Positions 4,514 through 32,606 of a stretch of 64,000 nt of DNA are shown here, piece after piece; positions within the stretch are counted from its first letter, which is position 1, and every line of letters begins with the position of its first letter. The stretch comes from an uncultured bacterium. Its GTDB lineage: Bacteria > Krumholzibacteriota > Krumholzibacteriia > Krumholzibacteriales > Krumholzibacteriaceae. Position numbers and translations under genes: made by a program. The DNA is taken from positions 3,475 to 67,474 of the forward strand of contig CAYWGA010000002.1 of the NCBI GenBank assembly GCA_964457905.1, in the 5' to 3' direction. A model generated the notes under the pieces. It was not told the DNA's origin. It did no database searches and saw only the letters and a program-made list of their open reading frames with translations.

Positions 4514-4547
4514 TCTGCTGGTGAATGAATCCTGGTTTCAATCGCAC

Positions 4548-4584: not shown

Positions 4585-4605
4585 GCATAGTACAGAGGAT
4601 CGTTG

Positions 4606-5973
<1,368 letters not shown>

Positions 5974-16464: not shown

Positions 16465-18291
16465 ATGAAACTCAGGACCGGCATATACACTTTCGTGATC
16501 CTTTTCCTCCTGACAGGAACGGCCGCGGGCCAGTTCACAAAGGAGATACCGGACACGATTTCGTCTTCAAGCAACGAGAAGATGGATTCGCTGCAGAGCC
16601 AGGTCGCGAGAAACTCACTCGGCAAGCTTCTTAACGACTATGTATTTGTAACGAGGATGGATACGGCAAGCGTCGGCCGTGGAGCGGAAAAGAGTGAGGA
16701 TCCATTCGTTCCGTTCGTAGGCCGGTTCATCCGCCATGTCGAGATATACAGGTTCAACATCTTCAGTGACATCGAAGCCACAACGGACAATTCCGATTCC
16801 CCGGGATTTGTCAGGGCGCTCGAGTGGATCCATGTCGATACAAGGATCAACAAGATCGCCGGGTTCCTCCTCTTCGAGGAAGGCGATCCCGTCGATCCGT
16901 ACGCCTTGTCTGACTCGGAACGCCTACTCAGGGAGACCTCGTTTATTCAGGATGCACGAGTCAATATCATCCCCGTTGAGGGGAGCCCCGACTCGGTCGA
17001 CGTCCGGGTCCTGACAAGGGATGTCTGGTCGATAGGCGCAAGCTACACCTGGATCACCGAGGACCGGCACAGGGTCAAGTTTTACGAGAGAAACCTGGGT
17101 GGATACGGTCAGACCATCCAGTGGGAAGGTTCGCTCGACTTCAGCAGGACGAGGTACATCGACCATAGTCTCTACTACGGCGCTCCAAATATATATGGAA
17201 CATTCATCGACGGGTCGGCGAGGTGGGTCGACGCTGTTGCCTACAGGTACAACGAATGGGCACTCAGGCGAGGATATGTCTCACCTGAGATCAAATGGAT
17301 AGGCGCAGTATCGATAGAAGGAATGGACGACGTCGACGAGAATCCAGGGAAGATAAAGAAATGGGACCGCGAGGATTTCTGGATCGGCCGGTCCATCCGC
17401 ATCGGCAAGGGTTATACCGAAGAGGGAAGCAGAAGGAGGGTGATCCCGGCCATCAGGGTCCAGAGGACGGACTATCATGTGCGTCCCACAGTCAGCGCTG
17501 ACCTGAACCGCAGTTATCATGACAGGGTGTTGTATCTTGCCAGCCTTTCGTTTACCGAACGCTCTTTCCGGAAGATGAGGATGGTCTTCAGCTTCGGAAG
17601 GACGGAGGATATACCTTACGGGGCACTCGCCACAGTCACAGGTGGAACGAGTGATTCCGAGTTCTACAACAGGCCTTATCTCTCATTCGACCTCGCATAT
17701 TCCAGTTTCGTTGGAAGTTCGGGGTACCTTGCCGCGAGGGGAGCCCTTGGCAGCTACAAGAGGAACGGCCGGACCGAGGACGGGACACTTTCCCTGAACT
17801 TCGGCGGTTTTACCAGCCTGCTGCCCGCCTGGCGCGCGATGGCGAGGCATTTCTTTGTCATAGACTACATCTACGGGTATAACAGGCTCCCGAACAACGA
17901 TGTCGCTCTGGAATGGCCGAGAGGGGAACTGAGGGGGCTGTCCAACACGGGTGTCGAGGGCCATCAGCGGCTTACGATCAGCTGGGAGGGCATCCTCTTC
18001 GCCGACTGGGACTGGTACGGGTTCAGGTTCGCCTCGTTCGGATATGCTGAAGCTGGACAGTGCGGCCCGAACTGGGACTCGTTCCTCGACGCGAAGTATT
18101 ACTTCAGCCTCGGCGGCGGATTCAGGGTGCATAACGAAAGGCTGATCTTCGACGCCTACGAGGTGCGGTTCATGTACCATCCTGTCGTACCCGAAGGAGC
18201 GGACACGCAGGTTTTCAGGTTTGAGGCGGTCAAAAACCTCAGGATCCCCTTCCTCTCCCCCGGCGCTCCGAGGGTCCTCAAGTACGAATAA
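16465..18291 (+). CDS. Hypothetical secreted protein (608 aa)
   Basis: Signal peptide MKLRTGIYTFVILFLLTGTAAGQ. No recognisable catalytic motifs. Confidence 0.4.
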   Translation: MKLRTGIYTFVILFLLTGTAAGQFTKEIPDTISSSSNEKMDSLQSQVARNSLGKLLNDYVFVTRMDTASVGRGAEKSEDPFVPFVGRFIRHVEIYRFNIFSDIEATTDNSDSPGFVRALEWIHVDTRINKIAGFLLFEEGDPVDPYALSDSERLLRETSFIQDARVNIIPVEGSPDSVDVRVLTRDVWSIGASYTWITEDRHRVKFYERNLGGYGQTIQWEGSLDFSRTRYIDHSLYYGAPNIYGTFIDGSARWVDAVAYRYNEWALRRGYVSPEIKWIGAVSIEGMDDVDENPGKIKKWDREDFWIGRSIRIGKGYTEEGSRRRVIPAIRVQRTDYHVRPTVSADLNRSYHDRVLYLASLSFTERSFRKMRMVFSFGRTEDIPYGALATVTGGTSDSEFYNRPYLSFDLAYSSFVGSSGYLAARGALGSYKRNGRTEDGTLSLNFGGFTSLLPAWRAMARHFFVIDYIYGYNRLPNNDVALEWPRGELRGLSNTGVEGHQRLTISWEGILFADWDWYGFRFASFGYAEAGQCGPNWDSFLDAKYYFSLGGGFRVHNERLIFDAYEVRFMYHPVVPEGADTQVFRFEAVKNLRIPFLSPGAPRVLKYE

Positions 18292-21494: not shown

Positions 21495-22343
21495 ATGACC
21501 GAGTGCTTTTTTGTCTCAGATCTTCACGGCAAGACCAACCGGTACGAAAAGTTGTTCGGTGCGATCAGCAGGGAAAAGCCGGCGGCGGTATTCATCGGCG
21601 GAGATATACTTCCCTCAATCGGATCTACTGCGCCCTTTCACGATTTTCTGTCCGATTTTCTTTACGCAGGCCTGGACCGTCTTCGCTCTTCATTGGGCGA
21701 TAGCTACCCCGCGATCTTCATCATACCGGGCAATGACGACTACCACTCCATAGTGGAAGAGATTGATGCCCTCGCCGATACGGGTCTCCTGTTCAGTATG
21801 CATGGCAGGGTGGAACCTTTCGGCTTATGGAAGATATTCGGATATTCATTTACTCCACCCAGTCCATTCATGCTGAAGGACTGGGAGAAGTACGACGTCT
21901 CCCGCTTCACCGACCCGGGCTGTGTCTCTCCCGAGGAAGGCCGCTATACATTCGAAATCCCGGACTCGGAGAAACGCTACGCGACGATCGCCGCCGATCT
22001 CGAGTCACTTGCCGGCTCTGAGGATCTGGAGAGTGCCGTTTTCCTTTTCCATGCCCCTCCATACAAGACAAATCTGGACCGAGCCGATCTCGACGGCAGG
22101 TATGTCGACAGCATCCCGATGGATGTCAACGTAGGAAGCATAGCGATACGCAGGTTCATCGAGGAGCGTCAGCCCCTCTTGACGCTTCATGGGCATATAC
22201 ATGAATCGGCAAGATTAACGGGAGAATGGAAAGACACAATAGGCGAAACGGTGATGTTCTCGGGAGCCCATGACGGACCGGAACTCGCGCTGGTCAGGTT
22301 CAGGCTGGAAAATCCGGGGAAGGCAGAAAGAGAACTCCTCTAG
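21495..22343 (+). CDS. Calcineurin-like metallophosphoesterase
   Basis: FFVSDLHGK...AVFIGGDILP...IIPGNDD...LTLHGHIHE matches phosphoesterase motifs I-V. Start trimmed to the first ATG after the glnS stop. Confidence 0.6.
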   Translation: MTECFFVSDLHGKTNRYEKLFGAISREKPAAVFIGGDILPSIGSTAPFHDFLSDFLYAGLDRLRSSLGDSYPAIFIIPGNDDYHSIVEEIDALADTGLLFSMHGRVEPFGLWKIFGYSFTPPSPFMLKDWEKYDVSRFTDPGCVSPEEGRYTFEIPDSEKRYATIAADLESLAGSEDLESAVFLFHAPPYKTNLDRADLDGRYVDSIPMDVNVGSIAIRRFIEERQPLLTLHGHIHESARLTGEWKDTIGETVMFSGAHDGPELALVRFRLENPGKAERELL

Positions 22344-25300
22344 CCTTCGCCCGGATCTTTCAGCTTCAAGGGACGGGCGGGGTCCGTCACTGCGCCTATT
22401 TTTACCGCATAACTTGTCTTGTTCTCAATATCCTCATCTGTCACAACGTGTACATCGAGCAGCCCCCCGGAGCGATATCCGGTCCGGTTATAGTTGATCT
22501 CGTCGAGACACAGGCTCCACGCTTCAAGCCAGGTCATCAGATCATTACGCTGATCCTGTGTTCCGCGGAAGTGGACGAGAAGGTCGATATCGCTGGCTAG
22601 CCCGGCAGTTGCGTTCTTCGTGCTTCCAAAGACGTAGAAACCAACTACTCCGAAACGTTCGGGATCGAGTCGGGAGGCGATGTGCTCAGCCATCCTCAGG
22701 CGCCACATCCAGAGATGGTCGGTCGGTTTTTTTGCCTCTGCCTCCATCTCGGTGATCTCTTCCCTGTCCTCTGTCGGATCGGCAAGGATACCAAGTGCCT
22801 CACCCAGATCGGCGTTCATCAGTACCCTCAGGACCCTGCCCTTTGTCGCTTTGGGCACATCGATCAGTTTTATCGTATCGGCCAGCCCGGCATACTCGGG
22901 AAGCACGTCGGGAAGAAGATTTTTCGAGATTGAAAAGAACCTGTCGTTGAAAACGGTTCCCTCATCATCGGGATACAGCGGAAGGTATCTTATCTGTCCT
23001 TCCACGAGATCCTGGAAAAAATGTGTCCCAAACGAAAGATCCGGCTTATAGCCACCTTTGCTGCGTGCGATCTCCATCAGGACCGCTGTATTGTTGATGT
23101 CGGAATATGTCACGCTCACACCGAGTCGTATATCGCCCCTGCTCCCCCATCTGCCCGGTCCCATGAGTACGAACTGGCGCTTGGGCAGGATCTTGTTCAG
23201 CCGGCTGACTGCCCGTCCTACCTCCAGAAGTTCCTCACGGGAGGATATTTCGCCGTATTTCACCGGGTCCACGTATACCACGTGCGTGATATCCGGCACG
23301 CGCCCGTTGGATACATACCTGTCCGCTGAAAATACGATATCCTTCTCGGAGACATCCTTGGGGATGGGAGACGGCGCGATATCTTCCGAATAGCTCTGGG
23401 GCCTGCACTGGAGAAGATAGAAATCGTTGCCGTCATGAGCGAATTCGATGTCGACGGGATTACCGATAGTCTCTTCCAGGGTCTCAAGGATCGCCCGTAC
23501 TTTCCTTACGAATGGCGTATCGCTCAGGAGCCCCTCACACGTCATCAACAGGTCGTCCTTTTCGAAATCGATGCTCATCGGCATCGGCTTGTGCATATGA
23601 CCACCCTTATTGACCAGTACCATCTTTTCAATATTCGGATAGTCGTCGCCATGTGTCCTGAGCAGTTCGCTGATCTCGACCGTTTCGAATGTATTGCTCC
23701 GGAGGTTGATCACATCGATCATCTTCGGGGAATAATGCGCGATCTCTTCGGGAGCCACGTTGACGCGAAGACCGGGTTGTCCCGGCGCCACCAGGATGGG
23801 ATAATCGTCGCTTACCCTGTCGACTGCCCGCGTGCCAAGGCCCGGGACGAGCCTTATCAATCCGTCCTCCCTCTTTATCCTGGGAGACCACCTGAATTCG
23901 TTTCTGCTGAACGCCACCCCGGCGAATGCCGGCAGGAAGTAATCACCCATCCTCGTCCCGATGACCTCCTGGATGAGAATTCCCATCTCCTCGGCAAAAT
24001 CGAGGAGCCCCCTCTCAGCCCTGTATTCGATCGGATCCGGCCCGAAGGAGGAGGCATAGACCTCGGCGATGGCATCCATGAGGGCCTCGAGACACTCCCG
24101 CTTGGATCCCTGGTTGGCAAGAAACAGGCTTTTGTATTTACCGGAAAAAGACGCACCGAGGCTGTCCTCAAGCAGGCTCGAGCTACGGATGATAAGCGGC
24201 TTCCCCTCGCATTCATCGAGGACCATGGACAGCCCCTGAACGACCTCAGGAGGGAACCGTCCATTTTTGAACGATCTTATGACATTCGGATATTCGACTC
24301 TGACCTGATTGATGCTCTTGTACTTTTGCTCCACGACTTCATCCATGTTGTTATACTTCAGGAATCCAAGCAGGATGTCGGAAGTCATGTACCAGCTGTT
24401 GGGGACCTTGATGCTTGAAAGCTCCTCGTCTTCCGCGAAACTTTTTCTGATTATCTGTTTCGCCATGACCAGGCCGGCGCATTTACCCCCGAGCCGTCCA
24501 TGGCTTCCAGTCATATAGATCGTCTTGTCGAGAAACTCGAAGAAATCCGCGATCTCAAAATAATTCTTGGCGATGTTTATATAGTCGAGCTGCGAAGAGA
24601 GGAATCTTCTGACCAGAGATACTATGACTCCGAGCTTGGCGCTCGGAGAGAGATCTATGTTCTCGGAGACCGCATCCCTGTACTGCCTCAACGCTGCAAT
24701 CACATCGGGAAGAGTAAGGTTCCTGTTAGCGATATGTATCAGGTATTTCAGCCTGTCATCCTGGATCCATTTCTGCAGGTATGCATATATCTGGTCACCG
24801 GTGAACTGACTTGTAGCAATCCGGAATATCTCGAAACTCATATCTTCCGTCAGCCTGAGATTACCACTTCTCATCGGCCGGTTCTCGTCCTCCTGGCCCC
24901 TCGCTCCATTCTCATAATAATCCGGCACTATCTTCTGCTGCAGTTTTTCAGCGGCTGAGACACCTTCCCAGCACAGATGATTGAGCATCCTCTCGGTCAC
25001 ATTGTAATAAAGGTCCTTGTCTGTGAACCGCAGAAGGTTCAGGATGACTTTCCAGTCTTCCTTGCCGGAACTGTCCGCCGGCTCGCCCGATAATCCGGCC
25101 TTCACCTTCATATCATCCTGCTGGAGAAGACTGCCGATCCTATCGGCGATGGTCGAAAGCAGCTTTTTCTCCTGCCTCAGAAAGGGACCATCGTCCGCTT
25201 CCGGCATCTCTCGGCTGTAGAAGACAGACAGCTTCCCGGCCTGTCTCTTGCCGACAATGATATCCGCGCTCTGCATCCATGAGGTTTCGGTGAATCCATA

Positions 25301-25519
25301 TTCGCTGTAACTGTCAGGTCCCAGTTCGATTCTCACGCGGCAGTATTTTGGATACTGCCATCCGGACGGAATCGCTGAGACAATCTTCATGCACGTATCC
25401 CCGATATTCCCCTCATGATCCCTTACGATCTCCTCGATGCGGTACAGGCACTCAAGTTCCTTCTCTCTTTCAACAAAGAAACGCATGAGATCATCCGGAT
25501 TATCTTTTTGGTCATGCAT
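22340..25519 (-). CDS. Multidomain protein: N-terminal unknown region, PEP/pyruvate-binding (PPDK_N, ATP-grasp-like) domain, C-terminal Pol-beta-type nucleotidyltransferase
   Basis: RLGGKCAGLVMAKQII and IIRSSSLLEDSLGASFSGKYKSLF are PPDK_N hallmarks. C-terminus FYVFGSTKNATAGLASDIDLLVHF is the G[SG]x9-13Dh[DE]h minimal NTase motif. Its 5' end overlaps the upstream paralog by 8 nt. Confidence 0.6.
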   Translation of the reverse strand: MHDQKDNPDDLMRFFVEREKELECLYRIEEIVRDHEGNIGDTCMKIVSAIPSGWQYPKYCRVRIELGPDSYSEYGFTETSWMQSADIIVGKRQAGKLSVFYSREMPEADDGPFLRQEKKLLSTIADRIGSLLQQDDMKVKAGLSGEPADSSGKEDWKVILNLLRFTDKDLYYNVTERMLNHLCWEGVSAAEKLQQKIVPDYYENGARGQEDENRPMRSGNLRLTEDMSFEIFRIATSQFTGDQIYAYLQKWIQDDRLKYLIHIANRNLTLPDVIAALRQYRDAVSENIDLSPSAKLGVIVSLVRRFLSSQLDYINIAKNYFEIADFFEFLDKTIYMTGSHGRLGGKCAGLVMAKQIIRKSFAEDEELSSIKVPNSWYMTSDILLGFLKYNNMDEVVEQKYKSINQVRVEYPNVIRSFKNGRFPPEVVQGLSMVLDECEGKPLIIRSSSLLEDSLGASFSGKYKSLFLANQGSKRECLEALMDAIAEVYASSFGPDPIEYRAERGLLDFAEEMGILIQEVIGTRMGDYFLPAFAGVAFSRNEFRWSPRIKREDGLIRLVPGLGTRAVDRVSDDYPILVAPGQPGLRVNVAPEEIAHYSPKMIDVINLRSNTFETVEISELLRTHGDDYPNIEKMVLVNKGGHMHKPMPMSIDFEKDDLLMTCEGLLSDTPFVRKVRAILETLEETIGNPVDIEFAHDGNDFYLLQCRPQSYSEDIAPSPIPKDVSEKDIVFSADRYVSNGRVPDITHVVYVDPVKYGEISSREELLEVGRAVSRLNKILPKRQFVLMGPGRWGSRGDIRLGVSVTYSDINNTAVLMEIARSKGGYKPDLSFGTHFFQDLVEGQIRYLPLYPDDEGTVFNDRFFSISKNLLPDVLPEYAGLADTIKLIDVPKATKGRVLRVLMNADLGEALGILADPTEDREEITEMEAEAKKPTDHLWMWRLRMAEHIASRLDPERFGVVGFYVFGSTKNATAGLASDIDLLVHFRGTQDQRNDLMTWLEAWSLCLDEINYNRTGYRSGGLLDVHVVTDEDIENKTSYAVKIGAVTDPARPLKLKDPGEG

Positions 25520-27269
25520 GGAGGATCACCCCCCGGCCGCTCTTTCCGTCGACCTTTACAGTCAGCGGACTGTCGAGTCTGATATGCCGGACATGTTTTG
25601 TCTCGAAACAGGATTCTTTGGTTTTCAGCCATTTCCAGTCTATCGAACGATCGTCGTCATGTCGCATGGAAAAATAGAAGACCTTGAAGCTGGTCAGGTT
25701 GTGGAAGAAATGCGAACCCTGGCTCATCATGTACCCGAAGTTGGAAAGAGAGATCTCCACTATAACCTTCGCTCCGGATATCTGGCCGAAATCGACTGGG
25801 ATCCCGCCCATCTGGTCCGTCGTCCCCCAGCGTCCGAAGCCTACCAGAATGTATTTCCTGCCCTCTCCGACCAGCCTTTCGTTTATCGTCTCTATTTCAG
25901 AAGCGATCTCCCGGGACCTCATTATGTCGAATGTGTCGGGATCGATATATACCAGGTCGGAGATCGAATCATCGGCCCCGTTTCCCAGAACCGTGGTAGA
26001 AGAGATCAGCACTCCCGGATCGTCAAGCTCCTCCTCCGCAACGGTCACTTCAGACTTCGAAACGACCATCGGACGGGCCTGAAGAAATCCGAAATCGGCA
26101 GGTTCACCGAGCGTGCTTCCAAGTCTCATCGCGAACTCGATCTCCACCTTCGCTCCGAGCCGTTCCTCGCATTCCCTCATGACTGTCTTGAGGAGCTCGC
26201 TGAAATGGAAATCCCTGCCTCGAAGGATCGGCGAGAAATCAATGACCCTCGGCCCGTCACGAAAGATTCCGCTCTCGAGACGGTCATCCCTGTGATTATA
26301 TGTCGAGGCGATCAGGCCAAGGGACCCGTCATACTCGCAGTCCTTCAAATCGAATCGATCAAGGTACTCCATCTCTTCAACAGGACTGTATGTATGCAGC
26401 TTCCCCATATTCACTGCCCAGAACCCGGTCTGAGTATGCTTGAGCATATCACCGGTCGACTTGAACGGAGGACCGACAGCGGGCCATTCGGGCGAAAAGG
26501 CCCATGAGATCCCGTCATCGACAATCGTCCTCCCGAGACCGAGTGCCAGCTCGACTACCCCCTCCTCCGGTTCTGCCCTGCCGAAAGGATAAAAATTGAA
26601 CGATCTCATCACGCCTGATACGTGAGGGTAATACCTGTCCCCGAATCTCGTGCCGATGATATCCTGAATTATCACAGCCATCTTTTCATCCTCGATCGAA
26701 TGGCTCACGACCTTCATGTAGTCCCCTGCAGACTTGAAGAATGTAGAGGCATAGATGAATTTTACCGCCTCGGCCAGCTTCTGAAATCTGGAATCCGTAT
26801 CGGGAAGATTGTTGGGGACCATCTTTGTCGCGTAGACACTGGCGAAAGGCTCGAACATGGCATCCTCCAGCAGGCTCGAGGACCTTACCGCCAGAGGTGT
26901 GTGGACCTGCTGCGCGATAGCTCTCAGATCGCCGGCAAGCCCGACAGGAAGGGAAGCTCGCAGAAAAGCGTGGGCCTTGATCTCATCGCGCCTGTCGGAG
27001 AGCGCGATATCGTAGAGGTCGTTCTCCCGCATGAAGAGATCGAAAAACTCCGTTGTAATAACGGTCAGCCTTGGAATAGCGACCGATATAGCCGGTTCGA
27101 ACAGAGGCTTTACCTTATTTCCCAGCGCTTCACCCATCTTCGCCAATCCGTGAGCCTTGCCACCCAACTCACCGGAACCGATGAAAGTAAACCGCTCTTT
27201 CCCGGTAAAGAACTCCCGTTCGAACCGGCTGACAGTAAATTCATCCCTTATGCCGGATTCTTCAGACAA
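25512..27269 (-). CDS. PEP/pyruvate-binding (PPDK_N) domain protein, paralog of 22340..25519 without NTase
   Basis: ELGGKAHGLAKMGEAL and VRSSSLLEDAMFEPFASVYATKMVPN motifs. Shares the post-PPDK_N module (ILVGFGRWGTTD vs VLMGPGRWGSRGD) with the neighbour. Apparent TTG start 6 nt after the gdh stop. Confidence 0.55.
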   Translation of the reverse strand: MSEESGIRDEFTVSRFEREFFTGKERFTFIGSGELGGKAHGLAKMGEALGNKVKPLFEPAISVAIPRLTVITTEFFDLFMRENDLYDIALSDRRDEIKAHAFLRASLPVGLAGDLRAIAQQVHTPLAVRSSSLLEDAMFEPFASVYATKMVPNNLPDTDSRFQKLAEAVKFIYASTFFKSAGDYMKVVSHSIEDEKMAVIIQDIIGTRFGDRYYPHVSGVMRSFNFYPFGRAEPEEGVVELALGLGRTIVDDGISWAFSPEWPAVGPPFKSTGDMLKHTQTGFWAVNMGKLHTYSPVEEMEYLDRFDLKDCEYDGSLGLIASTYNHRDDRLESGIFRDGPRVIDFSPILRGRDFHFSELLKTVMRECEERLGAKVEIEFAMRLGSTLGEPADFGFLQARPMVVSKSEVTVAEEELDDPGVLISSTTVLGNGADDSISDLVYIDPDTFDIMRSREIASEIETINERLVGEGRKYILVGFGRWGTTDQMGGIPVDFGQISGAKVIVEISLSNFGYMMSQGSHFFHNLTSFKVFYFSMRHDDDRSIDWKWLKTKESCFETKHVRHIRLDSPLTVKVDGKSGRGVILHA

Positions 27270-27275
27270 CCGTTA

Positions 27276-28562
27276 TCACACCCATCCCCGGTCCTTGCAT
27301 GCCTGGGCCACACGGCCTACAGCGATGACGTAGGCGGCATCCCTCATGTAGATCTTCTTCTTCGCCGCGAGTGTGCTTACTGCCTCGAAGGCCGACGTCA
27401 TCTTCGAATCAAGCTTTCCGAGGACCTCATCCTTTTCCCAGAAGTAGTTCATGTTACACTGCACCTGCTCGAAGTAGCTGCAGGTCACCCCGCCGGCGTT
27501 CGCCAGAAGGTCGGGGATCATGAAAATCCCTCTTTCGTGGATGGTCTTATCGGCCTCGGGGGTGGTAGGGCCGTTCGCGCCCTCAGCGATGATCTTCACC
27601 GAGTCACTGATCAGGCTGACGTTCTCCTTCGTGATCTGGTTCTCGAGCGCGGCCGGGATTAGTATGTCGACCTCCTGCTCAAGCCAGGCACCGCCATCGA
27701 GGGCCTCATACCCGAGCTTTTCCGCTTTATCCTTCTGGATCCCACCGAAACGGTCGGTTATCCCCCTGAGGACTTCGAGGTCGACACCGTCTGATTTCCT
27801 GAAGCTGTACGACTTCTGTTCCTTCTGGTCCCAGCAGGATACGCAGATGACCTTTCCGCCTAGTTGCTGGTAAAGCTCGATCGCGTGCTGAGCCACATTG
27901 CCGAATCCCTGGACGCTTGCCTTCGTCTTCGAGGGCGGTATGCCGAGCTCCTTCAGCGCTTCCCGGACAGTGAATATCACTCCATATCCGGTCGCTTCGG
28001 TGCGTCCGAGTGAGCCGCCCATACCTACAGGCTTGCCCGTGATGAAACCGGGGAGCCTCTCGCCCCTGAGCATCTCGAACTCGTCGAGCATCCACAGCAT
28101 ATGCTGAGGATTGGTCATGACGTCCGGTGCCGGCACGTCGTTGACAGGTCCCATGTCTCTTGACAACTGCCTGACCCACCCCCGGCAGATCTGCTCCTGC
28201 TCGCGGGCGCTGAGGTTATGGGGATCGCAGATGACGCCGCCCTTGGAGCCTCCCAGTGGAATATCTACTACTGAGGTCTTCCAGGTCATCCACATCGAGA
28301 GCGCCCGGACCGTATCGATCGTCTCCATCGGGTGGAACCTTATCCCACCCTTGGCGGGCCCCCTGGCATCGTTGTGCTGGACCCTGAAACCGCGGAACAC
28401 CCTGGAGCTTCCATCATCCATGACGACAGGGATGCTCACATGATATTCCCGCATGTTGGTGCGAAGAAGTTCCCTGGTCCCCTCATCAAGGTCCAGAACA
28501 TCCGCCACATTGTCGAACTGCTCCTGCGCCATCTCGAAGGCGTTATACGAACGGTCCGCCAT
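27276..28562 (-). CDS. gdh: Glutamate dehydrogenase (~420-aa Thermotoga/Pyrococcus-type family)
   Basis: GGIRFHP...DIPLGGSKGGVICDP active-site motif. C-terminal Rossmann domain. AAGGAGG RBS. Confidence 0.85.
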   Translation of the reverse strand: MADRSYNAFEMAQEQFDNVADVLDLDEGTRELLRTNMREYHVSIPVVMDDGSSRVFRGFRVQHNDARGPAKGGIRFHPMETIDTVRALSMWMTWKTSVVDIPLGGSKGGVICDPHNLSAREQEQICRGWVRQLSRDMGPVNDVPAPDVMTNPQHMLWMLDEFEMLRGERLPGFITGKPVGMGGSLGRTEATGYGVIFTVREALKELGIPPSKTKASVQGFGNVAQHAIELYQQLGGKVICVSCWDQKEQKSYSFRKSDGVDLEVLRGITDRFGGIQKDKAEKLGYEALDGGAWLEQEVDILIPAALENQITKENVSLISDSVKIIAEGANGPTTPEADKTIHERGIFMIPDLLANAGGVTCSYFEQVQCNMNYFWEKDEVLGKLDSKMTSAFEAVSTLAAKKKIYMRDAAYVIAVGRVAQACKDRGWV

Positions 28563-28584
28563 GACTGTTCCTCCTTATGAAACA

Positions 28585-30006
28585 TTAGCTGACGCTTGTT
28601 GTGCTCTGCATCGTTCCCGAGGCACCTTTTTTCTCCTGGTCATCCGGTTTCCTGGCACCGGTCATACTTTTCGCAACCATTCCCGCCGCCTTCATGAGCG
28701 GATATGCCGCGGGAGACGCTGTCAATAACGGGTGGGTGCCGATCTGGGATGTCAGGATCGTGTTTATACTCATCCTGCCCTGTATCAGGAATCCGATCAG
28801 ATTAGTCAGCTCTCCTGTGCTCGGTCCTCCGGAGACCTCTCCGCCCAGCAGCACTCCGGATTCCCTGGCGGCAATGAGCTTCACTTTCTGTTTGTGGGCA
28901 CCGGGCAGTGTCCCGGGGTGCTTGTCCACACCCTCGAAGACGCCGGTGACCATATCGAATCCTTCCTCCCTTGCCTTTGTCTCGGTAAGACCGGCAACGC
29001 CGAATCCGTGGTCGCCGAGGGCCGTGGAGAAGATCGAGATCGTCCCGCTGAAAGTCTTCACGGCTGAAAGTCTGAAAAGATTCATACCGGCGGTTCTCGC
29101 TTCGGCGCAGGCGGTCGATGCAAGCATGGCGTTGCATGGTTTTCTCGTTACGAAATCACGCTTCTCCGCGCAATCCCCGACAGCAAATACATCGGAATCT
29201 TCCGTTCTCATATATTCATCGACACGGATAAATCCCTGTTCTGTCAGGGACAGTCCCGTTTTTTCCGCGAGTACTGTATTCGGGCGGTACCCGACCGAGA
29301 GCACGACTGAATCTGCGTCGATGACCTTGTTGTCATCGAGGATGATTCCAGTGACCTTCTTGTCGCCGATTATCTGCTTGACCCCGTTACCGGTTATCAG
29401 CTTGACCCCTCTTTCCTTCAGGATCCCTTCGGCCTCGATCGCTATCTCCTCGTCAAAGGCCAGCCCGAGCACGTGGGGAAGTATCTCCACGAGGGTCACG
29501 TCCTTGCCCGCCTTGTTCAGTTCGTCCGATAGCTCGACGCCGATGAATCCGCCGCCGATGACGACGACCTTTTTCAATACGTTTATCGAAAGCTGGGTGC
29601 TGTCGAGATATACCTTGTCCTTCGGAACGGTAAAGACGTTCTCCAGGTCCGCGCCCTTGAGCCAGCCGGGACTGTTCGGAATCGAACCGCTGGCGATGAT
29701 CAGTTTCTCGTAACCGATCTCGTCGCCATCTTTCGTGGAACATACCTTTTTCTCTCGGTCGATCCCTGTGACCTCCGCGATGAGTTCTCTTATCCCGGCC
29801 CCGGCAAAGACCTTTCCTGCGGGAAGGAGGTCATTCTCTGTGCTCCCGACCGTACCGAAGATATACGGAATACCGCAGGGTATCAAGACCTTACCATCCT
29901 TGTGGATCACGAGGACATCCTTGTCCGGATAGTGAGTCTTGACTGTCGTTGCCGCAACAAAGCCGGCAGCGCTGCCACCGATGATGATTACATCTGCTTT
30001 ATCCAT
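28585..30006 (-). CDS. FAD-dependent pyridine nucleotide-disulfide oxidoreductase, NADH oxidase/CoA-disulfide reductase family, with ~100-aa C-terminal extension
   Basis: N-terminal VIIIGGSAAG FAD fold. Single redox Cys in VLIPCGIPY (Nox/CoADR class). Second Rossmann motif VVVIGGGFIGVE. GGGAGA RBS. Confidence 0.7.
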   Translation of the reverse strand: MDKADVIIIGGSAAGFVAATTVKTHYPDKDVLVIHKDGKVLIPCGIPYIFGTVGSTENDLLPAGKVFAGAGIRELIAEVTGIDREKKVCSTKDGDEIGYEKLIIASGSIPNSPGWLKGADLENVFTVPKDKVYLDSTQLSINVLKKVVVIGGGFIGVELSDELNKAGKDVTLVEILPHVLGLAFDEEIAIEAEGILKERGVKLITGNGVKQIIGDKKVTGIILDDNKVIDADSVVLSVGYRPNTVLAEKTGLSLTEQGFIRVDEYMRTEDSDVFAVGDCAEKRDFVTRKPCNAMLASTACAEARTAGMNLFRLSAVKTFSGTISIFSTALGDHGFGVAGLTETKAREEGFDMVTGVFEGVDKHPGTLPGAHKQKVKLIAARESGVLLGGEVSGGPSTGELTNLIGFLIQGRMSINTILTSQIGTHPLLTASPAAYPLMKAAGMVAKSMTGARKPDDQEKKGASGTMQSTTSVS

Positions 30007-30065
30007 TCCCGTTCTCCCTTCAAAGTCCTTGTCATGATGCGGTGTCCGTGCGAAACACTAGCAGG

Positions 30066-30080
30066 GCAATGGCCGTGCCA
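30066..30080 (-). promoter_or_regulatory. Sigma-54 promoter (-24 TGGCAC / -12 TTGC) reading toward the nox-gdh-PPDK_N operon
   Basis: Minus-strand sequence TGGCACGGCCATTGC matches TGGCAC-N5-TTGC exactly. About 60 nt upstream of the operon start codon at 30006, directly downstream of the sigma-54 activator gene. Confidence 0.6.
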
Positions 30081-30194
30081 TAAGGAAATAATTCTATAAG
30101 TGATTATATAACAATGCGATATGAATCAGGCGGAAGGAAATGGAAACTAAAAACGTTCCATTATGAAACGGCCTTAATACCGAACTGAAACCAC

Positions 30195-31820
30195 TCAGGG
30201 GTCGATGCCCGATTCCTTGAGTTTGCGCCACAGGGTAGTCTTGCCGATGCCGAGGATATCGGCAGCCTTCGAGCGGTTTCCATTCGTTGTCTCGAGGACC
30301 TTTCTGATATATTCCCGCTCCATCTCGGCCATCGTCATAGCTTCACCGTCCGCTCCGAACGCCATCCGGCCCTCAGCTTCCAACAGTTCCCGCGGGAGAT
30401 GTTCCGGCCGTATCCAGCCGTCATCGGTCAGCACCGCCGCCCGCTCCAGAACATTCTCCAGCTCACGGATATTCCCGGGCCAGTAGTATCTTTCCAGGTG
30501 CCTGATCGAGGCGGGCGCCAGTTTCAGCTTTTCGATCTTGAGCTTTCCGGAGAGACGGGACACAAAGAATCGCGCCAGCGGAATGATATCTATCTTGCGG
30601 TCCCGCAGGGGCGGGATCTCTATCTCTACGACCCCCAGCCGGTAGTAAAGGTCCTCCCTGAACCTTTCCTCCCGGATGAACTGCTTGAGAATCCGGTTGG
30701 TGGAGGCGATAACCCTGACGTCCACGGGCCTGTTGCGGTTATCCCCCACGCGGCGGATCTGTCTTTCCTGAAGCACGCGAAGAAGGGCTATCTGAAGGGC
30801 GGGAGAGATGTCGCCTATCTCGTCGAGCAGGATCGTCCCTCCGCTCGCTTCCTCGAAAAGCCCCACACGGTCGCGCACTGCCCCGGTGAATGATCCCGCG
30901 ACATGCCCGAACAGCTCGCTCGTCAGAAGCGTTTCAGGAAGCGCCGCGCAGTTCATCGCGACGAACTGCTTGTGTTTTCTCGGCGAACTGTCGTGGATGA
31001 ATCTCGCGAGCACCTCCTTGCCCACACCACTTTCTCCGGTTATCAGCACCGACGAATCAAAACGCGCCACACGGGAGGCCGTCTCGAGGACCTGCCGGTA
31101 CGGCTTGCTCCTGAGCTCCGGGGTGTTCCCGATGCTGAGGGGCACTATTTGCTGAAGCCTCTTCTGCTTCCGCGCGAGATCCAGGGTCTTCTTTCTCAGC
31201 TCGGTCATCAGGTCCTCTACCTTGCCCTGGATATCCTCCGACGCGAAATCCTCGACGAATTGATCCGCTTCGGCTCCCCACGAGTCGAGATCCTTTCCGA
31301 CGACCTCGCATACCTTGTCACCCCTGCAGCGACAGCTCTCCTCCCTGAAATAGACAGGCTTCTTCAGGCAGTAAGAAGCGTAACCGCTCGCGTAACCCTC
31401 CATTATCCAACACCCGGATTTTTTCGACACCCCTATTTCGATCAGCTGCTCATCGGCCTCGGCAGAATCGAGCCAGAGCACATCCATCTGAAACGTTCCA
31501 TCCTCCCCGACCATCATCTCCACGATCTCAGTCTTCGCCACGCCCTGCAGGGCGTGAAGATGCGGCCCCGCCCTCAACCATTCCTCCCTGCTGTCCCAGT
31601 CGACGATACTCTCCATCGCCGCGGCGTCTGCCTTGCCCCAGTAATAACCGAACCTGGCCAGTATCTTCCTCGTCTGTTCCGTCCCTATGGAGTTGACGAG
31701 GTCCTTTCGAAGCTGGGCCATTGCATGGATGTCATGAAGCACGAGCCTGCGACCTTGAAGACTCAACAGGCCCTCGGAGAAGGAGACGATATCTTCCAGC
31801 TTCAGATCTTCGGCTTTCAT
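30195..31820 (-). CDS. Sigma-54-dependent transcriptional activator with XylR-N/V4R-type sensing domain
   Basis: AAA+ sigma-54 interaction domain (GESGVGKEV, ESELFGHVAGSFTGA). C-terminal Fis-type HTH (AADILGIGKTTLWRKLK). N-terminal ~200 aa resembles the XylR/DmpR effector domain with Cys-rich V4R segment. Confidence 0.85.
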   Translation of the reverse strand: MKAEDLKLEDIVSFSEGLLSLQGRRLVLHDIHAMAQLRKDLVNSIGTEQTRKILARFGYYWGKADAAAMESIVDWDSREEWLRAGPHLHALQGVAKTEIVEMMVGEDGTFQMDVLWLDSAEADEQLIEIGVSKKSGCWIMEGYASGYASYCLKKPVYFREESCRCRGDKVCEVVGKDLDSWGAEADQFVEDFASEDIQGKVEDLMTELRKKTLDLARKQKRLQQIVPLSIGNTPELRSKPYRQVLETASRVARFDSSVLITGESGVGKEVLARFIHDSSPRKHKQFVAMNCAALPETLLTSELFGHVAGSFTGAVRDRVGLFEEASGGTILLDEIGDISPALQIALLRVLQERQIRRVGDNRNRPVDVRVIASTNRILKQFIREERFREDLYYRLGVVEIEIPPLRDRKIDIIPLARFFVSRLSGKLKIEKLKLAPASIRHLERYYWPGNIRELENVLERAAVLTDDGWIRPEHLPRELLEAEGRMAFGADGEAMTMAEMEREYIRKVLETTNGNRSKAADILGIGKTTLWRKLKESGIDP

Positions 31821-31942
31821 CAGACATACCCTTTCATATTGAAATAACTATGTTCCAGTATAGAACGGTGCGCTCACTTTGTCAAATATCCTGTTTTCGT
31901 CCATTTTGTTGCGGCAGTTACAGTTCCAGCATATCGGCCCCA

Positions 31943-31958
31943 TGGCACACAGATTGCC
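31943..31958 (+). promoter_or_regulatory. Sigma-54 promoter (TGGCAC-ACAGA-TTGC) divergent from the activator, reading toward 32013..32606
   Basis: Exact -24/-12 consensus with 5-nt spacer, 55 nt upstream of the ATG at 32013. Confidence 0.6.
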
Positions 31959-32012
31959 ATATAGTTTTTTGAATTGTTATGAATAACTGAGACAGGATTT
32001 CAGGAACGGGCC

Positions 32013-32606
32013 ATGACTTACGACAGGATCTACAGACATGCCGAGTGCCTCCGGACAGAGATGGAGCAATTCGCACATGAACTTGACAGGATAGTGCTGT
32101 CGAGCGGACACGGTGAAGATCCGGCCATCTTTATCGAACGGCATATGTCCACGGAACTCGATTACGACCTTGTCTATCAGGACGCAGCAGGGAACATCAT
32201 CGGCATCCAGGTCGGGGCCGAGGATGGATCTTCCGTCATGCTGAGATCGCACACCGGCGCTGTCGGGATCACTTCCCATATCTACGCGGGGCACATCCTG
32301 GGCGGAACGGGCATCCTGCCGCGAGGAACAGTCGTCGTCGCCTGTTCCTGTCACGAGGGATCACTTATCGAGAAAGGGACAAGGTTCCTGGTTGAGGAAT
32401 CGCTGCCGAGGCTCGGCATCACTGTGGATGCAGCAATACTTGCCGAACAGTCACCTGCCCTCGCCTCCAATATACCTGTAATCGGGAGAGGTCCGGAGCA
32501 TGATAAACAGACAGCCGCTCTCGCAGTCGCGTTGAAACCACAGGGCCTGGTGGAGTCGACATCCAGCACAGCGGCGCTTGCGTATAGATACCTGCTGACC
32601 AGATGA
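32013..32606 (+). CDS. M20-peptidase-like N-terminal fragment (possibly degenerate or truncated)
   Basis: AAGNIIGIQVGAEDGSSVMLRSHTGAVGI aligns with the M20 motif GN-I-...G...L-L-GH-D-V, but the metal-binding Asp is Gly. Only 197 aa versus ~380-400 expected. Confidence 0.35.
   Translation: MTYDRIYRHAECLRTEMEQFAHELDRIVLSSGHGEDPAIFIERHMSTELDYDLVYQDAAGNIIGIQVGAEDGSSVMLRSHTGAVGITSHIYAGHILGGTGILPRGTVVVACSCHEGSLIEKGTRFLVEESLPRLGITVDAAILAEQSPALASNIPVIGRGPEHDKQTAALAVALKPQGLVESTSSTAALAYRYLLTR

What the first reader, a model, noticed from the sequence alone, without database searches (positions are those of the whole stretch)
22340..32606. Sigma-54 regulon: XylR/V4R-type activator flanked by two exact -24/-12 promoters, driving a flavoprotein-GDH-PPDK_N-PPDK_N::NTase operon
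The enhancer-binding protein (30195..31820, minus) has a promoter matching TGGCAC-N5-TTGC on each side. One promoter (30066-30080, minus) lies immediately downstream of it and reads into four tightly packed or overlapping minus-strand genes: an Nox/CoADR-like flavoprotein, a GDH, a PPDK_N protein, and a PPDK_N-nucleotidyltransferase fusion. The intergenic gaps are 22 nt and 6 nt, and the last two genes overlap by 8 nt. The other promoter (31943-31958, plus) is divergent and reads into an M20-like gene. Two exact consensus sigma-54 promoters bracketing their cognate activator are unlikely by chance. The V4R/XylR-type sensor implies control by a small-molecule effector. The gene content (glutamate deamination, a disulfide or NADH oxidoreductase, two ATP-grasp-like phosphotransfer modules, one nucleotidyltransferase) does not match any characterised catabolic or biosynthetic operon I know.
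Basis: partly seen in the sequence, partly recalled or inferred. Interest (0 to 1): 0.8.

Follow-up and report, generated by a model that had tools for sequence, protein, structure and literature searches.

The report
Sigma-54-controlled glutamate dehydrogenase–dikinase cassette
A real sigma-54 genetic switch has been placed in front of a glutamate dehydrogenase gene that, in hundreds of bacterial species, travels with two uncharacterised ATP-using "dikinase-like" proteins and a phosphoesterase, which probably form an unknown control system for this central nitrogen enzyme.

Summary
Two exact TGGCAC-N5-TTGC sites (30066-30080 minus, 31943-31957 plus) flank a XylR_N/V4R sigma-54 activator, against 0.03 expected. 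Each has a pair of TTTCA-N3-TGRAA-type sites about 85 and 106 bp upstream. That motif occurs nowhere else in the 64 kb.

The promoter and one site of each pair recur: the site next to the activator's ATG in its orthologues, and the promoter plus both P1 sites in two close relatives. A Zixibacteria genome has the same activator type, the motif and a near-consensus promoter before the same genes.

The interpretation needs revision.
- The divergent "M20-like" ORF is a decayed relic. Orthologous activators drive a full M20 deacylase plus an acetate/propionate kinase.
- The activator and flavoprotein are lineage-specific additions.
- The conserved unit is GDH, a 585-aa PPDK_N protein, and a 1059-aa fusion (GAF, ATP-grasp, a new domain, minimal nucleotidyltransferase), with a convergent metallophosphoesterase.
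- It is found in at least 590 species-level genomes. GDH sits directly upstream in 60 of 67 loci, and natural single-chain fusions of the two partners exist.
- The new domain follows every ATP-grasp examined, has an invariant S-x-G-x-H motif and weakly resembles phosphohistidine swivel domains.

I found no literature, Pfam model, NCBIfam model or solved structure for it. My best guess is a sensor-controlled covalent-modification system acting on GDH. This function is inferred, not shown.

The parts
21495..22343 (+). Metallophosphoesterase (282 aa). It is convergent with the fusion gene and overlaps its stop by 4 nt. It is a member of the conserved cassette.
   Evidence: Pfam Metallophos 3.9e-8. 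The DxH, GD, GNDD, H and GHxH motifs are visible in the translation. The 282-aa start matches the gene called on the same contig. It lies convergent within 400 nt of the fusion in 36 of 69 loci. There is no NCBIfam or PDB sequence match.
22340..25519 (-). 1059-aa fusion protein. Approximate domains: GAF-like sensor (residues 10-140, window 25100-25492); helical region (150-330); PPDK_N ATP-grasp (342-725, window 23345-24496); new conserved C-domain (726-915, window 22775-23344); minimal nucleotidyltransferase (935-1059, window 22343-22717).
   Evidence: Pfam. AlphaFold model with pLDDT 74. Foldseek against PDB: rifampin phosphotransferase 6e-13, HpeI and PPDK for the ATP-grasp; Nlh1 and NifA GAF domains; MNT-type NTases. 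Invariant GGK, RSSSxxED, E-F-A and Q-x-R-P motifs, GS...DxD, and SFGTHFFQD.
25512..27269 (-). 585-aa partner protein: PPDK_N ATP-grasp (residues 34-412) plus the same new C-domain (405-585, window 25515-26057). It overlaps the fusion gene by 8 nt.
27276..28562 (-). Glutamate dehydrogenase (428 aa, hexameric archaeal/Thermococcus type)
   Evidence: Pfam ELFV_dehydrog plus the N-terminal domain. PDB 1euz E=2e-123. It is 56-92% identical in cassette loci, and upstream on the same strand in 60 of 67 loci.
28585..30006 (-). CoADR/Nox/Npx-like single-cysteine flavoprotein (473 aa). First gene behind promoter P1. A lineage-specific addition.
   Evidence: Pfam Pyr_redox_2, Pyr_redox and Pyr_redox_dim. 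NCBIfam CoA-disulfide reductase scores 222 bits, below the cut-off of 458. The motif IPCGIPY is in the translation. It is adjacent to GDH only in the window, L096 and L097.
30066..30080 (-). Sigma-54 promoter P1 (TGGCACGGCCATTGC), 60 nt upstream of the flavoprotein ATG
   Evidence: Exact consensus. Conserved as TGGCAyGGyCrTTGCCCT in L096 and L097 while the flanks diverge.
30155..30169 (.). Putative activator-binding site II (GTTTCATAATGGAAC), centred 83.5 bp upstream of the GG of P1. It also forms a weak terminator-like hairpin for the activator transcript.
30177..30191 (.). Putative activator-binding site I (GTTTCAGTTCGGTAT), centred 105.5 bp upstream of the GG of P1, 22 bp from site II
   Evidence: 14 of its 15 bases (TTTCAGTTCGGTAT) are invariant in the three-way intergenic alignment, which averages 73% column identity.
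30195..31820 (-). Sigma-54 enhancer-binding protein (541 aa): XylR_N, V4R, AAA+ and HTH_8
   Evidence: Pfam. Walker A GESGVGKE and the GSFTGA loop are in the translation. NCBIfam MobR-like scores 393 bits, below the cut-off of 999.
31832..31844 (.). Putative activator-binding site A (TTTCAATATGAAA palindrome), 106.5 bp from the GG of P2, lying in the activator's own 5' leader
   Evidence: Conserved just upstream of the activator ATG in L088, L090, L094, L023 and, degenerately, L091. It is one of only two loci with this motif in the window.
31852..31866 (.). Putative activator-binding site B (GTTCCAGTATAGAAC), 85.5 bp from the GG of P2. It overlaps the -10 of the activator's sigma-70 promoter.
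31857..31885 (-). Sigma-70-type promoter of the activator gene (TTGACA-17-TATACT, 11 of 12)
   Evidence: TTGACA/TTGACT-type -35 hexamers are readable at the equivalent place in the orthologue leaders; this is my own reading of the sequences printed.
31943..31957 (+). Sigma-54 promoter P2 (TGGCACACAGATTGC), divergent from the activator
   Evidence: Exact consensus. A divergent site is present next to the orthologous activators: L088 and L091 exact, L090 one mismatch, L089 and L095 identical to the window.
32013..32606 (+). 197-aa relic of an M20/ArgE/DapE/YgeY-type deacylase, probably non-functional
   Evidence: It aligns to residues 35-177 and 335-390 of the 405-aa L088 protein. A 33-residue deletion removes the metal-ligand stretch, and the lid domain is missing. 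No Pfam hit. In L089 it is truncated after about 42 codons.

Best explanation
The explanation has two layers.

(1) Regulation (well supported). The 541-aa XylR_N/V4R enhancer-binding protein senses an unknown small molecule. It binds pairs of TTTCA-N3-TGRAA-type sites centred about 85 and 106 bp upstream of two consensus sigma-54 promoters.
- P1 transcribes one operon: flavoprotein, GDH, 585-aa protein, 1059-aa protein.
- P2 is the family's ancestral divergent promoter. Here it reads only into a decayed M20 deacylase relic.
- The activator's own sigma-70 promoter overlaps site B, so the activator probably represses itself.
- The switch, together with a Nox/CoADR-like flavoprotein, was grafted in this lineage (probably Krumholzibacteriota) onto a much older cassette.

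(2) The cassette (inferred). GDH, the 585-aa protein, the 1059-aa protein and the convergent metallophosphoesterase form a functional unit dedicated to GDH.
- Both large proteins pair an intact PPDK-type ATP-grasp with a new swivel-like domain that carries an invariant histidine. They probably work like dikinases: ATP to enzyme-His-phosphate plus AMP and Pi, then transfer to an acceptor. They probably act as a heteromer.
- They lack the pyruvate/PEP-binding barrel. The acceptor is therefore something else, most likely GDH itself.
- The long protein adds a GAF sensor and a minimal nucleotidyltransferase.
- I propose a ligand-controlled writer (phosphoryl and/or nucleotidyl) with the metallophosphoesterase as eraser. 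This would be the GDH counterpart of glutamine synthetase adenylylation.
- The flavoprotein would reoxidise NAD(P)H made by GDH during induced glutamate catabolism.
For: Regulation:
- Two exact sites against 0.03 expected. The activator has Walker A, a GSFTGA loop and HTH_8.
- TTTCANNNTGRAA occurs only at 30156-30168 and 31832-31844 (expected 0.18), with matching spacing at both promoters.
- The palindrome and a second site 21 nt away recur upstream of the activator ATG in L088, L090, L094 and L023, with a degenerate copy in L091.
- L096 and L097 (activator 87% and 85% identical) keep the order activator, flavoprotein, GDH. In their intergenic alignment the promoter and both sites stand out as conserved islands.
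- L023 (Zixibacteria, activator 54% identical, same domains) has TTTCAAAATGAAA followed by TGGCAC-N5-TTGT ahead of GDH, the PPDK_N protein and the fusion.
- NtrC-type two-component activators with one-mismatch sites precede the cassette in L049 and L070.
- The sigma-70 promoter scores 11 of 12 and overlaps site B.

Cassette:
- At least 590 species-level genomes carry it.
- GDH is upstream on the same strand in 60 of 67 loci, and some GDH is present in 66 of 67. The 585-aa partner is adjacent in 63 of 80. The phosphoesterase is convergent in 36 of 69.
- The association survives rearrangements (L032, L037, L045, L074). A second paralogue lies in the same locus as a second, 31-36% identical GDH in 8 loci.
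- Unbiased clustering finds no other conserved neighbour.
- Single-chain fusions of the two partners exist: P0241-P0243.
- Both ATP-grasp domains keep GGK, RSSS..ED, E-x-E/F-A and Q-x-R-P.
- The C-domain follows PPDK_N in all nine other architectures examined, some with receiver or other N-terminal domains.
- E, S-x-G-x-H are at least 98% conserved in 154 domain instances.
- GAF and MNT folds were found. The NTase GS/DxD motif is invariant.
- Precedent: SelO AMPylates and inactivates mammalian GDH (PMC12375108).
Against: - There is no transcript, binding or enzymatic evidence at all.
- rpoN could not be checked in this organism.
- Site II is also a weak terminator-like hairpin.
- The promoter-distal P1 site is only a half-match to the palindrome.
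- The L023 promoter has GT instead of GC at -12.
- Most cassettes (65 of 68) have no sigma-54 site upstream of GDH, so sigma-54 control says nothing about cassette function.
- In the full-length model this segment has pLDDT 30-40.
- Nothing shows that GDH is the acceptor. Gene linkage is equally compatible with a shared metabolite.
- No cassette-specific modifiable residue on GDH was pinned down.
- About 13 loci lack the 585-aa partner, and about half lack the adjacent phosphoesterase.
Confidence: 0.5

Rival explanations
1. The cassette is a metabolic pathway, not a regulator. The two proteins form an 'X, water dikinase' that phosphorylates, or with the NTase nucleotidylates, a small molecule linked to the GDH reaction. 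The acceptor would be glutamate, 2-oxoglutarate, ammonia or a nicotinamide cofactor. The metallophosphoesterase would process the product. This parallels phenylphosphate synthase, the HpeHI acetovanillone dikinase and rifampin phosphotransferase.
For: Every characterised PPDK_N enzyme outside PEPS/PPDK acts on small molecules (established knowledge). The best structural matches are rifampin phosphotransferase and HpeI. Linkage to two different GDH subfamilies fits a shared substrate or product as well as it fits a shared protein target.
Against: No recognisable small-molecule binding domain and no further pathway enzyme is conserved nearby. GAF, receiver and other sensor domains at the N-terminus of family members look more like signalling outputs. 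MNT-type NTases of known function modify proteins (established knowledge).
Confidence: 0.25
2. The operon is plain inducible glutamate catabolism. GDH makes NAD(P)H and the Nox-like flavoprotein reoxidises it. The two PPDK_N genes merely ride along in the transcript, with an unrelated function.
For: The flavoprotein is adjacent to GDH, and the operon lies behind an inducible catabolic-type activator. There is a sigma-54 precedent for catabolic GDH: rocG with RocR and SigL (PMC10404663).
Against: The link between GDH and the PPDK_N proteins is far older and wider than the flavoprotein link: 60 of 67 loci against 3. It persists through rearrangements and recurs with a second GDH type.
Confidence: 0.1
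3. Only the divergent upstream activating sequence next to the activator's start codon is a real binding site. The palindrome downstream of the activator gene is just its transcription terminator. P1 would then be activated from 1.7 kb away, by another activator, or not at all.
For: Site II scores as a hairpin followed by a T-run on the activator's strand. The second downstream half-site I first picked by eye (GTTTCCATTTCC) is not conserved in L096 or L097.
Against: The stem is weak (3 G-C pairs). The same motif occurs upstream of the activator ATG in orthologues, where no terminator is expected. The 83.5/105.5 bp spacing mirrors the 85.5/106.5 bp spacing at P2. L023 has the same motif between its activator and the cassette promoter.
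Confidence: 0.1
4. The two TGGCAC-N5-TTGC matches are chance or fossil sequences without promoter activity.
For: P2 now faces only a decayed gene. No expression data exist.
Against: The expectation is 0.03 per window. Both sites are intergenic, correctly oriented and next to an activator. P1 is conserved in L096 and L097, and P2 in five orthologous contexts.
Confidence: 0.05

Closest known systems
XylR/DmpR/MopR-type sigma-54 activators with divergent regulated operons
   Same: XylR_N plus V4R sensor, an AAA+ domain with a GAFTGA-type loop, and HTH_8. Paired inverted-repeat binding sites about 100 bp upstream of a -24/-12 promoter. Divergent arrangement, with the activator's own promoter overlapping a binding site.
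   Different: It scores well below the NCBIfam MobR cut-off (393 against 999). It occurs in an anaerobe of the FCB group. The ancestral target is an M20 deacylase plus an acetate/propionate kinase, not aromatic catabolism. The effector is unknown.
RocR/SigL control of rocG (catabolic GDH) in Bacillus subtilis (PMC10404663)
   Same: A catabolic glutamate dehydrogenase transcribed from a sigma-54 promoter under a ligand-sensing enhancer-binding protein.
   Different: The sensor domain differs: PAS in RocR, from my own knowledge. rocG is monocistronic and has no dikinase-like or flavoprotein partners.
PEP synthase / pyruvate phosphate dikinase
   Same: A PPDK_N ATP-grasp with all nucleotide-binding motifs, followed by a small domain with a swivel-like fold. 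In that domain a conserved G-[ST]-H sits at the start of a helix after a strand, as in the TSH motif.
   Different: No PF00391 or PF02896 match. No pyruvate/PEP barrel. NCBIfam scores are 50-54 bits against cut-offs of 598-883. Extra GAF and NTase domains are present.
Rifampin phosphotransferase, phenylphosphate synthase (PpsAB), HpeHI, PigC/RedH
   Same: These are PPDK_N enzymes that have lost the pyruvate barrel and phosphorylate other acceptors. Some are split into two subunits. They are the best structural hits.
   Different: Those enzymes have canonical PEP-utilizers histidine domains and act on xenobiotics or secondary metabolites. None is linked to GDH or carries GAF or MNT domains.
Covalent control of nitrogen enzymes: GlnE adenylylation of glutamine synthetase, GlnD uridylylation of PII, SelO AMPylation of mammalian GDH (PMC12375108)
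   Same: A Pol-beta-fold nucleotidyltransferase and sensor domain(s) are encoded with, or act on, a central ammonium-handling enzyme. A hydrolytic activity reverses the mark. GDH is a proven AMPylation target in mammals.
   Different: There is no sequence relationship beyond the NTase fold. Modification of GDH here is a hypothesis only. The dikinase-like modules have no counterpart in those systems.

Membership tests
Sigma-54-dependent promoter/activator unit | -24 GG and -12 GC elements with exact spacing (TGGCAC-N5-TTGC) | tested here: met
   Two exact matches against 0.03 expected. P1 is conserved in L096 and L097.
Sigma-54-dependent promoter/activator unit | An activator with an AAA+ sigma-54 interaction domain, a GAFTGA loop and a DNA-binding HTH | tested here: met
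   Sigma54_activat 8e-68, HTH_8 3e-15. GESGVGKE and GSFTGA are in the translation.
Sigma-54-dependent promoter/activator unit | Upstream activator sequences about 80-150 bp from the promoter | tested here: met
   A motif unique to the two promoter regions, with the same geometry at both, and conserved in orthologues. Binding itself was not tested.
Sigma-54-dependent promoter/activator unit | rpoN present in the genome; transcription dependent on it | not testable with these tools
   Only a 64-kb window is available, and there are no expression data.
XylR/DmpR/MobR aromatic-responsive regulators | XylR_N plus V4R sensor architecture | tested here: met
   Pfam XylR_N 2.7e-24, V4R 1.8e-7
XylR/DmpR/MobR aromatic-responsive regulators | Equivalog-level similarity, aromatic effector and aromatic catabolic target | tested here: not met
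   NF041906 scores 393 bits against a cut-off of 999. The targets are an M20 deacylase with an acetate/propionate kinase, and a GDH operon.
PEP synthase / PPDK | N-terminal PPDK_N ATP-grasp | tested here: met
   PF01326 9e-60 and 3e-31, covering nearly the whole profile
PEP synthase / PPDK | PEP-utilizers phosphohistidine domain (PF00391) | tested here: inconclusive
PEP synthase / PPDK | C-terminal PEP/pyruvate-binding TIM barrel (PF02896) | tested here: not met
   Absent from both proteins. NCBIfam PEP synthase scores are at most 54 bits against cut-offs of at least 598.
Rifampin phosphotransferase | Equivalog-level similarity including the rifampin-binding and histidine domains | tested here: not met
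   NF041857 scores 35.6 bits against a cut-off of 999, matching the ATP-grasp only. Foldseek aligns about 400 columns of the ATP-grasp.
Minimal nucleotidyltransferase (MNT / NTP_transf_2) | hG[GS]-x(9-13)-DhD motif plus a third acidic residue | tested here: met
   PF01909 4.6e-7 on the isolated domain. G965, S966, D977, D979, D1022 and D1028 are invariant in 42 sequences. Foldseek finds MNT hits.
Glutamate dehydrogenase (hexameric ELFV family) | ELFV dimerisation and NAD(P)-binding domains with catalytic Lys motifs | tested here: met
   Pfam 8e-70 and 1e-51. 1euz E=2e-123, with KGG and GGSKGG aligned. NCBIfam GdhA_Arch scores 471 bits, below the equivalog cut-off of 750.
CoA-disulfide reductase / NADH oxidase / NADH peroxidase | Pyr_redox_2 plus dimerisation domain, with a single redox Cys near residue 43 | tested here: met
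   Pfam. Cys44 in IPCGIPY. All specific equivalog models score below cut-off (CoADR 222 against 458), so the substrate is undefined.
GlnE/GlnD-type nitrogen-signal nucleotidyltransferases | Demonstrated nucleotidylylation of a target enzyme, and homology to GlnE or GlnD | not tested
   This is a functional analogy only. No GlnE or GlnD model appears among the NCBIfam hits.

The most novel reading that the evidence does not exclude
The 585-aa and 1059-aa proteins together with the metallophosphoesterase would be a previously unrecognised reversible covalent-modification switch for glutamate dehydrogenase. A GAF-sensed metabolite would control a dikinase-type phosphohistidine relay and/or nucleotidylylation of GDH. 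The system would be widespread in the FCB superphylum, Acidobacteriota, Planctomycetota and others. It would be built on a new phosphocarrier-like domain that also serves as an output of two-component and other sensors.
Probability: 0.3. Interest if true: 0.85.

Novelty: new variant of a known kind. Interest (0 to 1): 0.6.

Why it matters
GDH sits at the junction of carbon and nitrogen metabolism, and it is the main deamination hub in protein-fermenting anaerobes. Dedicated enzymatic regulators of bacterial GDH are essentially unknown, in contrast to glutamine synthetase.

A cassette present in at least 590 species-level genomes ties GDH to two intact ATP-grasp enzymes, a sensor domain, a nucleotidyltransferase and a phosphoesterase. 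This points either to a missing layer of nitrogen control or to a missing reaction around glutamate and 2-oxoglutarate.

The new C-domain defines a family with about 2,260 cluster representatives. It has no Pfam model and no solved structure.

The sigma-54 unit is ordinary in kind, but it gives a clean, inducible handle for experiments: promoter, binding sites and activator are all defined.

Tried and rejected
- Sigma-54 control as a general property of the cassette: rejected. Only 3 weak sites occur in 68 GDH upstream regions, which is the background rate.
- The flavoprotein as a cassette member: rejected. It is found only in the window, L096 and L097. L006 has a distant homologue elsewhere in the locus. 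The closest homologue outside this lineage that I looked up (71% identical, L098) is not next to GDH.
- ORF197 as a functional M20 peptidase: rejected.
- Sequence-level homology of the C-domain to PEP-utilizers. Pfam at E up to 10 found nothing. A PDB profile search gave only spurious repeat and longin hits. hhalign against the RPH-like protein of L007 gave probability 0.1. A regex search for histidine domains in 3 Mb of loci found one sequence, too few for a profile.
- Foldseek of the C-domain against PDB: no hit at E of 1e-3 or better. The afdb50 library was unavailable.
- Defence-system reading: PADLOC gave only weak NTase and phosphoesterase hits to candidate systems. The linkage to a housekeeping GDH argues against it.
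- Riboswitch or other RNA in the leaders: Rfam found none.
- Literature: five searches on the family, the cassette and GDH-linked dikinases returned nothing relevant.
- Search for a cassette-specific modifiable GDH residue. Only conserved C112, H115, C126, H154, T333 and C361 differ from Thermococcus profundus GDH. This is not interpretable.
- An unbiased search for further conserved neighbours found only antisense ORF artefacts.

Full report
**1. Observation**

The pattern TGGCACNNNNNTTGC occurs exactly twice in the 64-kb window. One copy is at 30066-30080 on the minus strand and the other at 31943-31957 on the plus strand. The expectation is 0.03, and no shuffle out of 100 gave two. Allowing one mismatch adds a single intragenic site at 45747-45761.

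Pfam confirms each domain call. The activator has XylR_N, V4R, Sigma54_activat and HTH_8. The other genes are a Pyr_redox_2 flavoprotein, an ELFV glutamate dehydrogenase, a PPDK_N protein, and a PPDK_N protein with a C-terminal NTP_transf_2 domain.

The activator translation shows a Walker A motif (GESGVGKE) and a GSFTGA loop. The one inaccurate detail is the divergent 197-aa ORF. It has no Pfam hit and only a weak N-terminal YgeY/M20 match.

**2. The sigma-54 unit is real and has recognisable activator sites**

A repeat search found a 27-nt similarity between the two promoter-upstream regions. Its core, TTTCANNNTGRAA, occurs only at 30156-30168 and 31832-31844 in the whole window, against 0.18 expected.

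Each promoter has two such sites 21-22 bp apart:
- P1 has sites centred 83.5 and 105.5 bp from the GG.
- P2 has sites centred 85.5 and 106.5 bp from the GG.

These coordinates are derived.

I fetched orthologous activators (46-56% identical over the sensor domain) from metagenomes. Four features recur in L088, L090, L091 and L094, and also in the Zixibacteria locus L023:
- the palindrome ATTTCA-N3-TGAAAG sits 10-15 nt upstream of the activator ATG (degenerate in L091);
- a second, weaker site lies about 21 nt further upstream;
- a TTGAC-type -35 hexamer lies upstream, by my own reading of the printed leader sequences;
- a divergent sigma-54 site is present, exact in L088 and L091 and with one mismatch in L090. 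L094 and L023 have none.

In the window the activator's sigma-70 promoter (TTGACA-17-TATACT, 11 of 12) overlaps site B. This suggests autorepression.

**3. Conservation of P1**

Searching with the flavoprotein recovered two short contigs that keep the order activator, flavoprotein, GDH. The protein identities are 87/89/89% in L096 and 85/82/92% in L097.

In the three-way alignment of the region between the activator stop and the flavoprotein start (73% mean column identity), three conserved blocks are:
- TTTCAGTTCGGTAT, which is invariant;
- (C)CGTTTCATAATGGAA;
- TCCTTnTGGCAyGGyCrTTGCCCT.

The leader downstream of the promoter carries an indel and many substitutions.

L023 has an activator of the same architecture. 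It is followed by TTTCAAAATGAAA, then TGGCACCAGACTTGT, then GDH, the PPDK_N protein and the fusion. Two other loci (L049, L070) have a histidine kinase plus an NtrC-type sigma-54 response regulator, with a one-mismatch sigma-54 site, ahead of the cassette.

Sigma-54 control of this gene set has therefore been acquired more than once. It is still the exception. Across 68 cassette loci, sigma-54-like sites upstream of GDH occur at the background rate.

**4. What the activator originally controlled**

In L088 and L094 the divergent sigma-54 promoter region faces a full-length 405-409-aa M20 (ArgE/DapE/YgeY-like) deacylase. This gene is followed by an acetate/propionate-family kinase (TIGR00016, 374 bits against a cut-off of 293).

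The window's ORF197 aligns to residues 35-177 and 335-390 of that protein. A 33-residue deletion removes the metal-ligand stretch, and the lid domain is missing. In L089, which is 94.5% identical in DNA over the shared part, homology to the window ends about 125 nt into the ORF. A glgC-like gene lies on the other strand.

P2 therefore drives a decaying relic. In this lineage the working output of the switch is P1.

**5. The conserved cassette**

The 1059-aa fusion is 57-78% identical over its full length in proteins from many candidate phyla. Their record titles name the following groups:
- Krumholzibacteriales, Zixibacteria, Aminicenantes, Ignavibacteria and Melioribacter
- Bacteroidota, Calditrichota, Cloacimonadota, Fermentibacteria, Eisenbacteria
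- Acidobacteriota classes, Planctomycetota, Myxococcales and Spirochaetes

I searched 87 loci with the window's proteins by tblastn (85 non-redundant, after removing two duplicate contigs). The results were as follows:
- a 56-86% identical GDH lies directly upstream on the same strand in 60 of 67 loci with enough flank;
- some GDH is present in 66 of 67;
- the 585-aa partner is adjacent in 63 of 80;
- a metallophosphoesterase is convergent within 400 nt in 36 of 69. It often overlaps the fusion's stop by 4 nt, as in the window.

The link survives inversions and reshuffling (L032, L037, L045, L074). A third paralogue (37-45% identical to the partner) shares a locus with a second, 31-36% identical GDH in 8 loci. 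In L060 and L064 the two genes lie directly side by side.

All-against-all clustering of neighbouring ORFs found no further conserved gene. Three cluster representatives (P0241-P0243) are single chains that join a partner-like half to a fusion-like half. This is a classical indicator that the two proteins work together.

**6. Anatomy of the two proteins**

Both ATP-grasp domains cover the whole PPDK_N profile. Both keep the nucleotide-binding motifs GGK, RSSS..ED, E-x-E/F-A and Q-x-R-P.

The AlphaFold model of the fusion (pLDDT 74) matched several folds:
- rifampin phosphotransferase (E 6e-13), HpeI and PPDK for residues 340-725;
- the GAF domains of Nlh1 and NifA for about residues 10-140;
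- MNT-type nucleotidyltransferases for the C-terminus, where the GS...DxD motif is invariant.

A domain of about 180 residues lies between the ATP-grasp and the NTase. It also forms the C-terminus of the 585-aa protein. It has no Pfam model and no PDB sequence relative. Modelled alone it folds confidently (pLDDT 86, pTM 0.86).

A profile search of 1.84 billion representatives found 2,263 members. In all nine I examined, the domain directly follows a PPDK_N domain. Some carry a receiver domain or other N-terminal extensions. Across 154 instances, one Glu and the S-x-G-x-H motif are at least 98% conserved. In the model the His begins a helix after a strand and loop, as the TSH motif does in PPDK (together with my own knowledge of PPDK).

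I therefore read each protein as an ATP-grasp plus a phosphocarrier-like domain without the pyruvate barrel. I mark the phosphohistidine step as inferred.

**7. Function**

GDH itself is canonical (1euz E 2e-123, with the catalytic motifs aligned).

My preferred mechanism is a ligand-gated writer of a phosphoryl and/or nucleotidyl mark on GDH, with the phosphoesterase as eraser. It rests on four points:
- the exclusive and ancient linkage to GDH;
- the sensor domains;
- an apparently active NTase of a type that modifies proteins;
- a conserved phosphoesterase with intact metal motifs.

This would be analogous to GlnE acting on glutamine synthetase. There is a direct precedent in SelO-mediated AMPylation, which inactivates mammalian GDH (PMC12375108).

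The main rival is a small-molecule dikinase pathway around glutamate or 2-oxoglutarate. Neither reading is tested. I put them at roughly 0.3-0.35 and 0.25.

The flavoprotein belongs to the CoADR/Nox/Npx family (Cys44 in IPCGIPY). It is below every equivalog cut-off. It most simply serves to reoxidise reduced cofactor when the operon is induced.

**8. Known or new**

Sigma-54-dependent catabolic GDH is known from the Bacillus subtilis system of rocG, RocR and SigL (PMC10404663). XylR-type activators with divergent targets are textbook. On its own, the regulatory unit is a new member of a known kind.

The GDH-linked dikinase-like pair has no NCBIfam equivalog, no domain model for its C-domain, no solved relative and no literature that I could find. 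Its source annotations are only 'PEP/pyruvate-binding domain-containing protein', 'pyruvate, water dikinase' or 'hypothetical protein'.

I rate the whole finding as a new variant of a known kind, with moderate-to-high interest. The interest comes from the cassette rather than from the promoters.

The best hits are named Candidatus Krumholzibacterium or Krumholzibacteria. An anaerobic ribonucleotide reductase lies nearby. Both suggest that the window comes from an anaerobic Krumholzibacteriota genome.

Noticed in passing
L038, L047, L051, L055, L060, L064, L085 (for example L064:2988-6472): A third paralogue of the PPDK_N plus C-domain protein (37-45% identical to the 585-aa partner) occurs in the same locus as a second, bacterial-type GDH (31-36% identical). 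In L060 and L064 the two genes are directly adjacent. L064 has the order paralogue, second GDH, cassette GDH, partner, fusion, which makes a GDH supercluster.
   Followed up: partly
P0241, P0242, P0243 (1523-1654 aa): Natural single-chain fusions of the 585-aa partner with the 1059-aa protein. Other family members carry a receiver domain (P0285), DUF5752 (P0288) or N-terminal extensions of about 440 or 970 residues without Pfam hits.
   Followed up: partly
window 27276-28562 (GDH residues 112, 115, 126, 154, 333, 361): Cassette-linked GDHs share near-invariant Cys112, His115, Cys126, His154, Thr333 and Cys361. These differ from Thermococcus profundus GDH. The cassette GDHs also have two small insertions in the NAD-binding domain. 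The significance is unknown.
   Followed up: partly
window 45747-45761 (-): A one-mismatch sigma-54-like site (TGGCACACTCATCGC) inside a DUF3575 ORF. It has no activator motif nearby and is probably chance.
   Followed up: no
window 1889-4513 (+) and 16465-18291 (+): Two long ORFs (874 and 608 aa) with no Pfam match at 1e-5.
   Followed up: no
window 7828-9972, 10643-13177, 36940-44312: An anaerobic class III ribonucleotide reductase with an ATP-cone, a glycogen/maltodextrin phosphorylase, and an RND efflux set (an HlyD-type adaptor plus an AcrB-type pump, followed by a 1024-aa ORF that I did not scan). The reductase points to an anaerobic host.
   Followed up: no
L007:~2180-5044: A rifampin-phosphotransferase-like PEP synthase homologue with a canonical GGMLVHGAIVARE histidine motif lies 2 kb upstream of the cassette in one Krumholzibacteriota genome. 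It was not seen at that position in the other loci, so it is probably coincidental.
   Followed up: partly
L001:15038-18143, also L015 and L057: In Aminicenantes-type loci a 556-aa protein lies a few kb downstream of the cassette, next to a 481-aa protein. The 556-aa protein is 24% identical to the partner. Neither has a Pfam hit.
   Followed up: no
window 30154-30170 (-): The promoter-proximal activator site of P1 doubles as a weak hairpin followed by a T-run, directly after the activator's stop codon. It may also attenuate read-through from the activator gene into the operon.
   Followed up: partly
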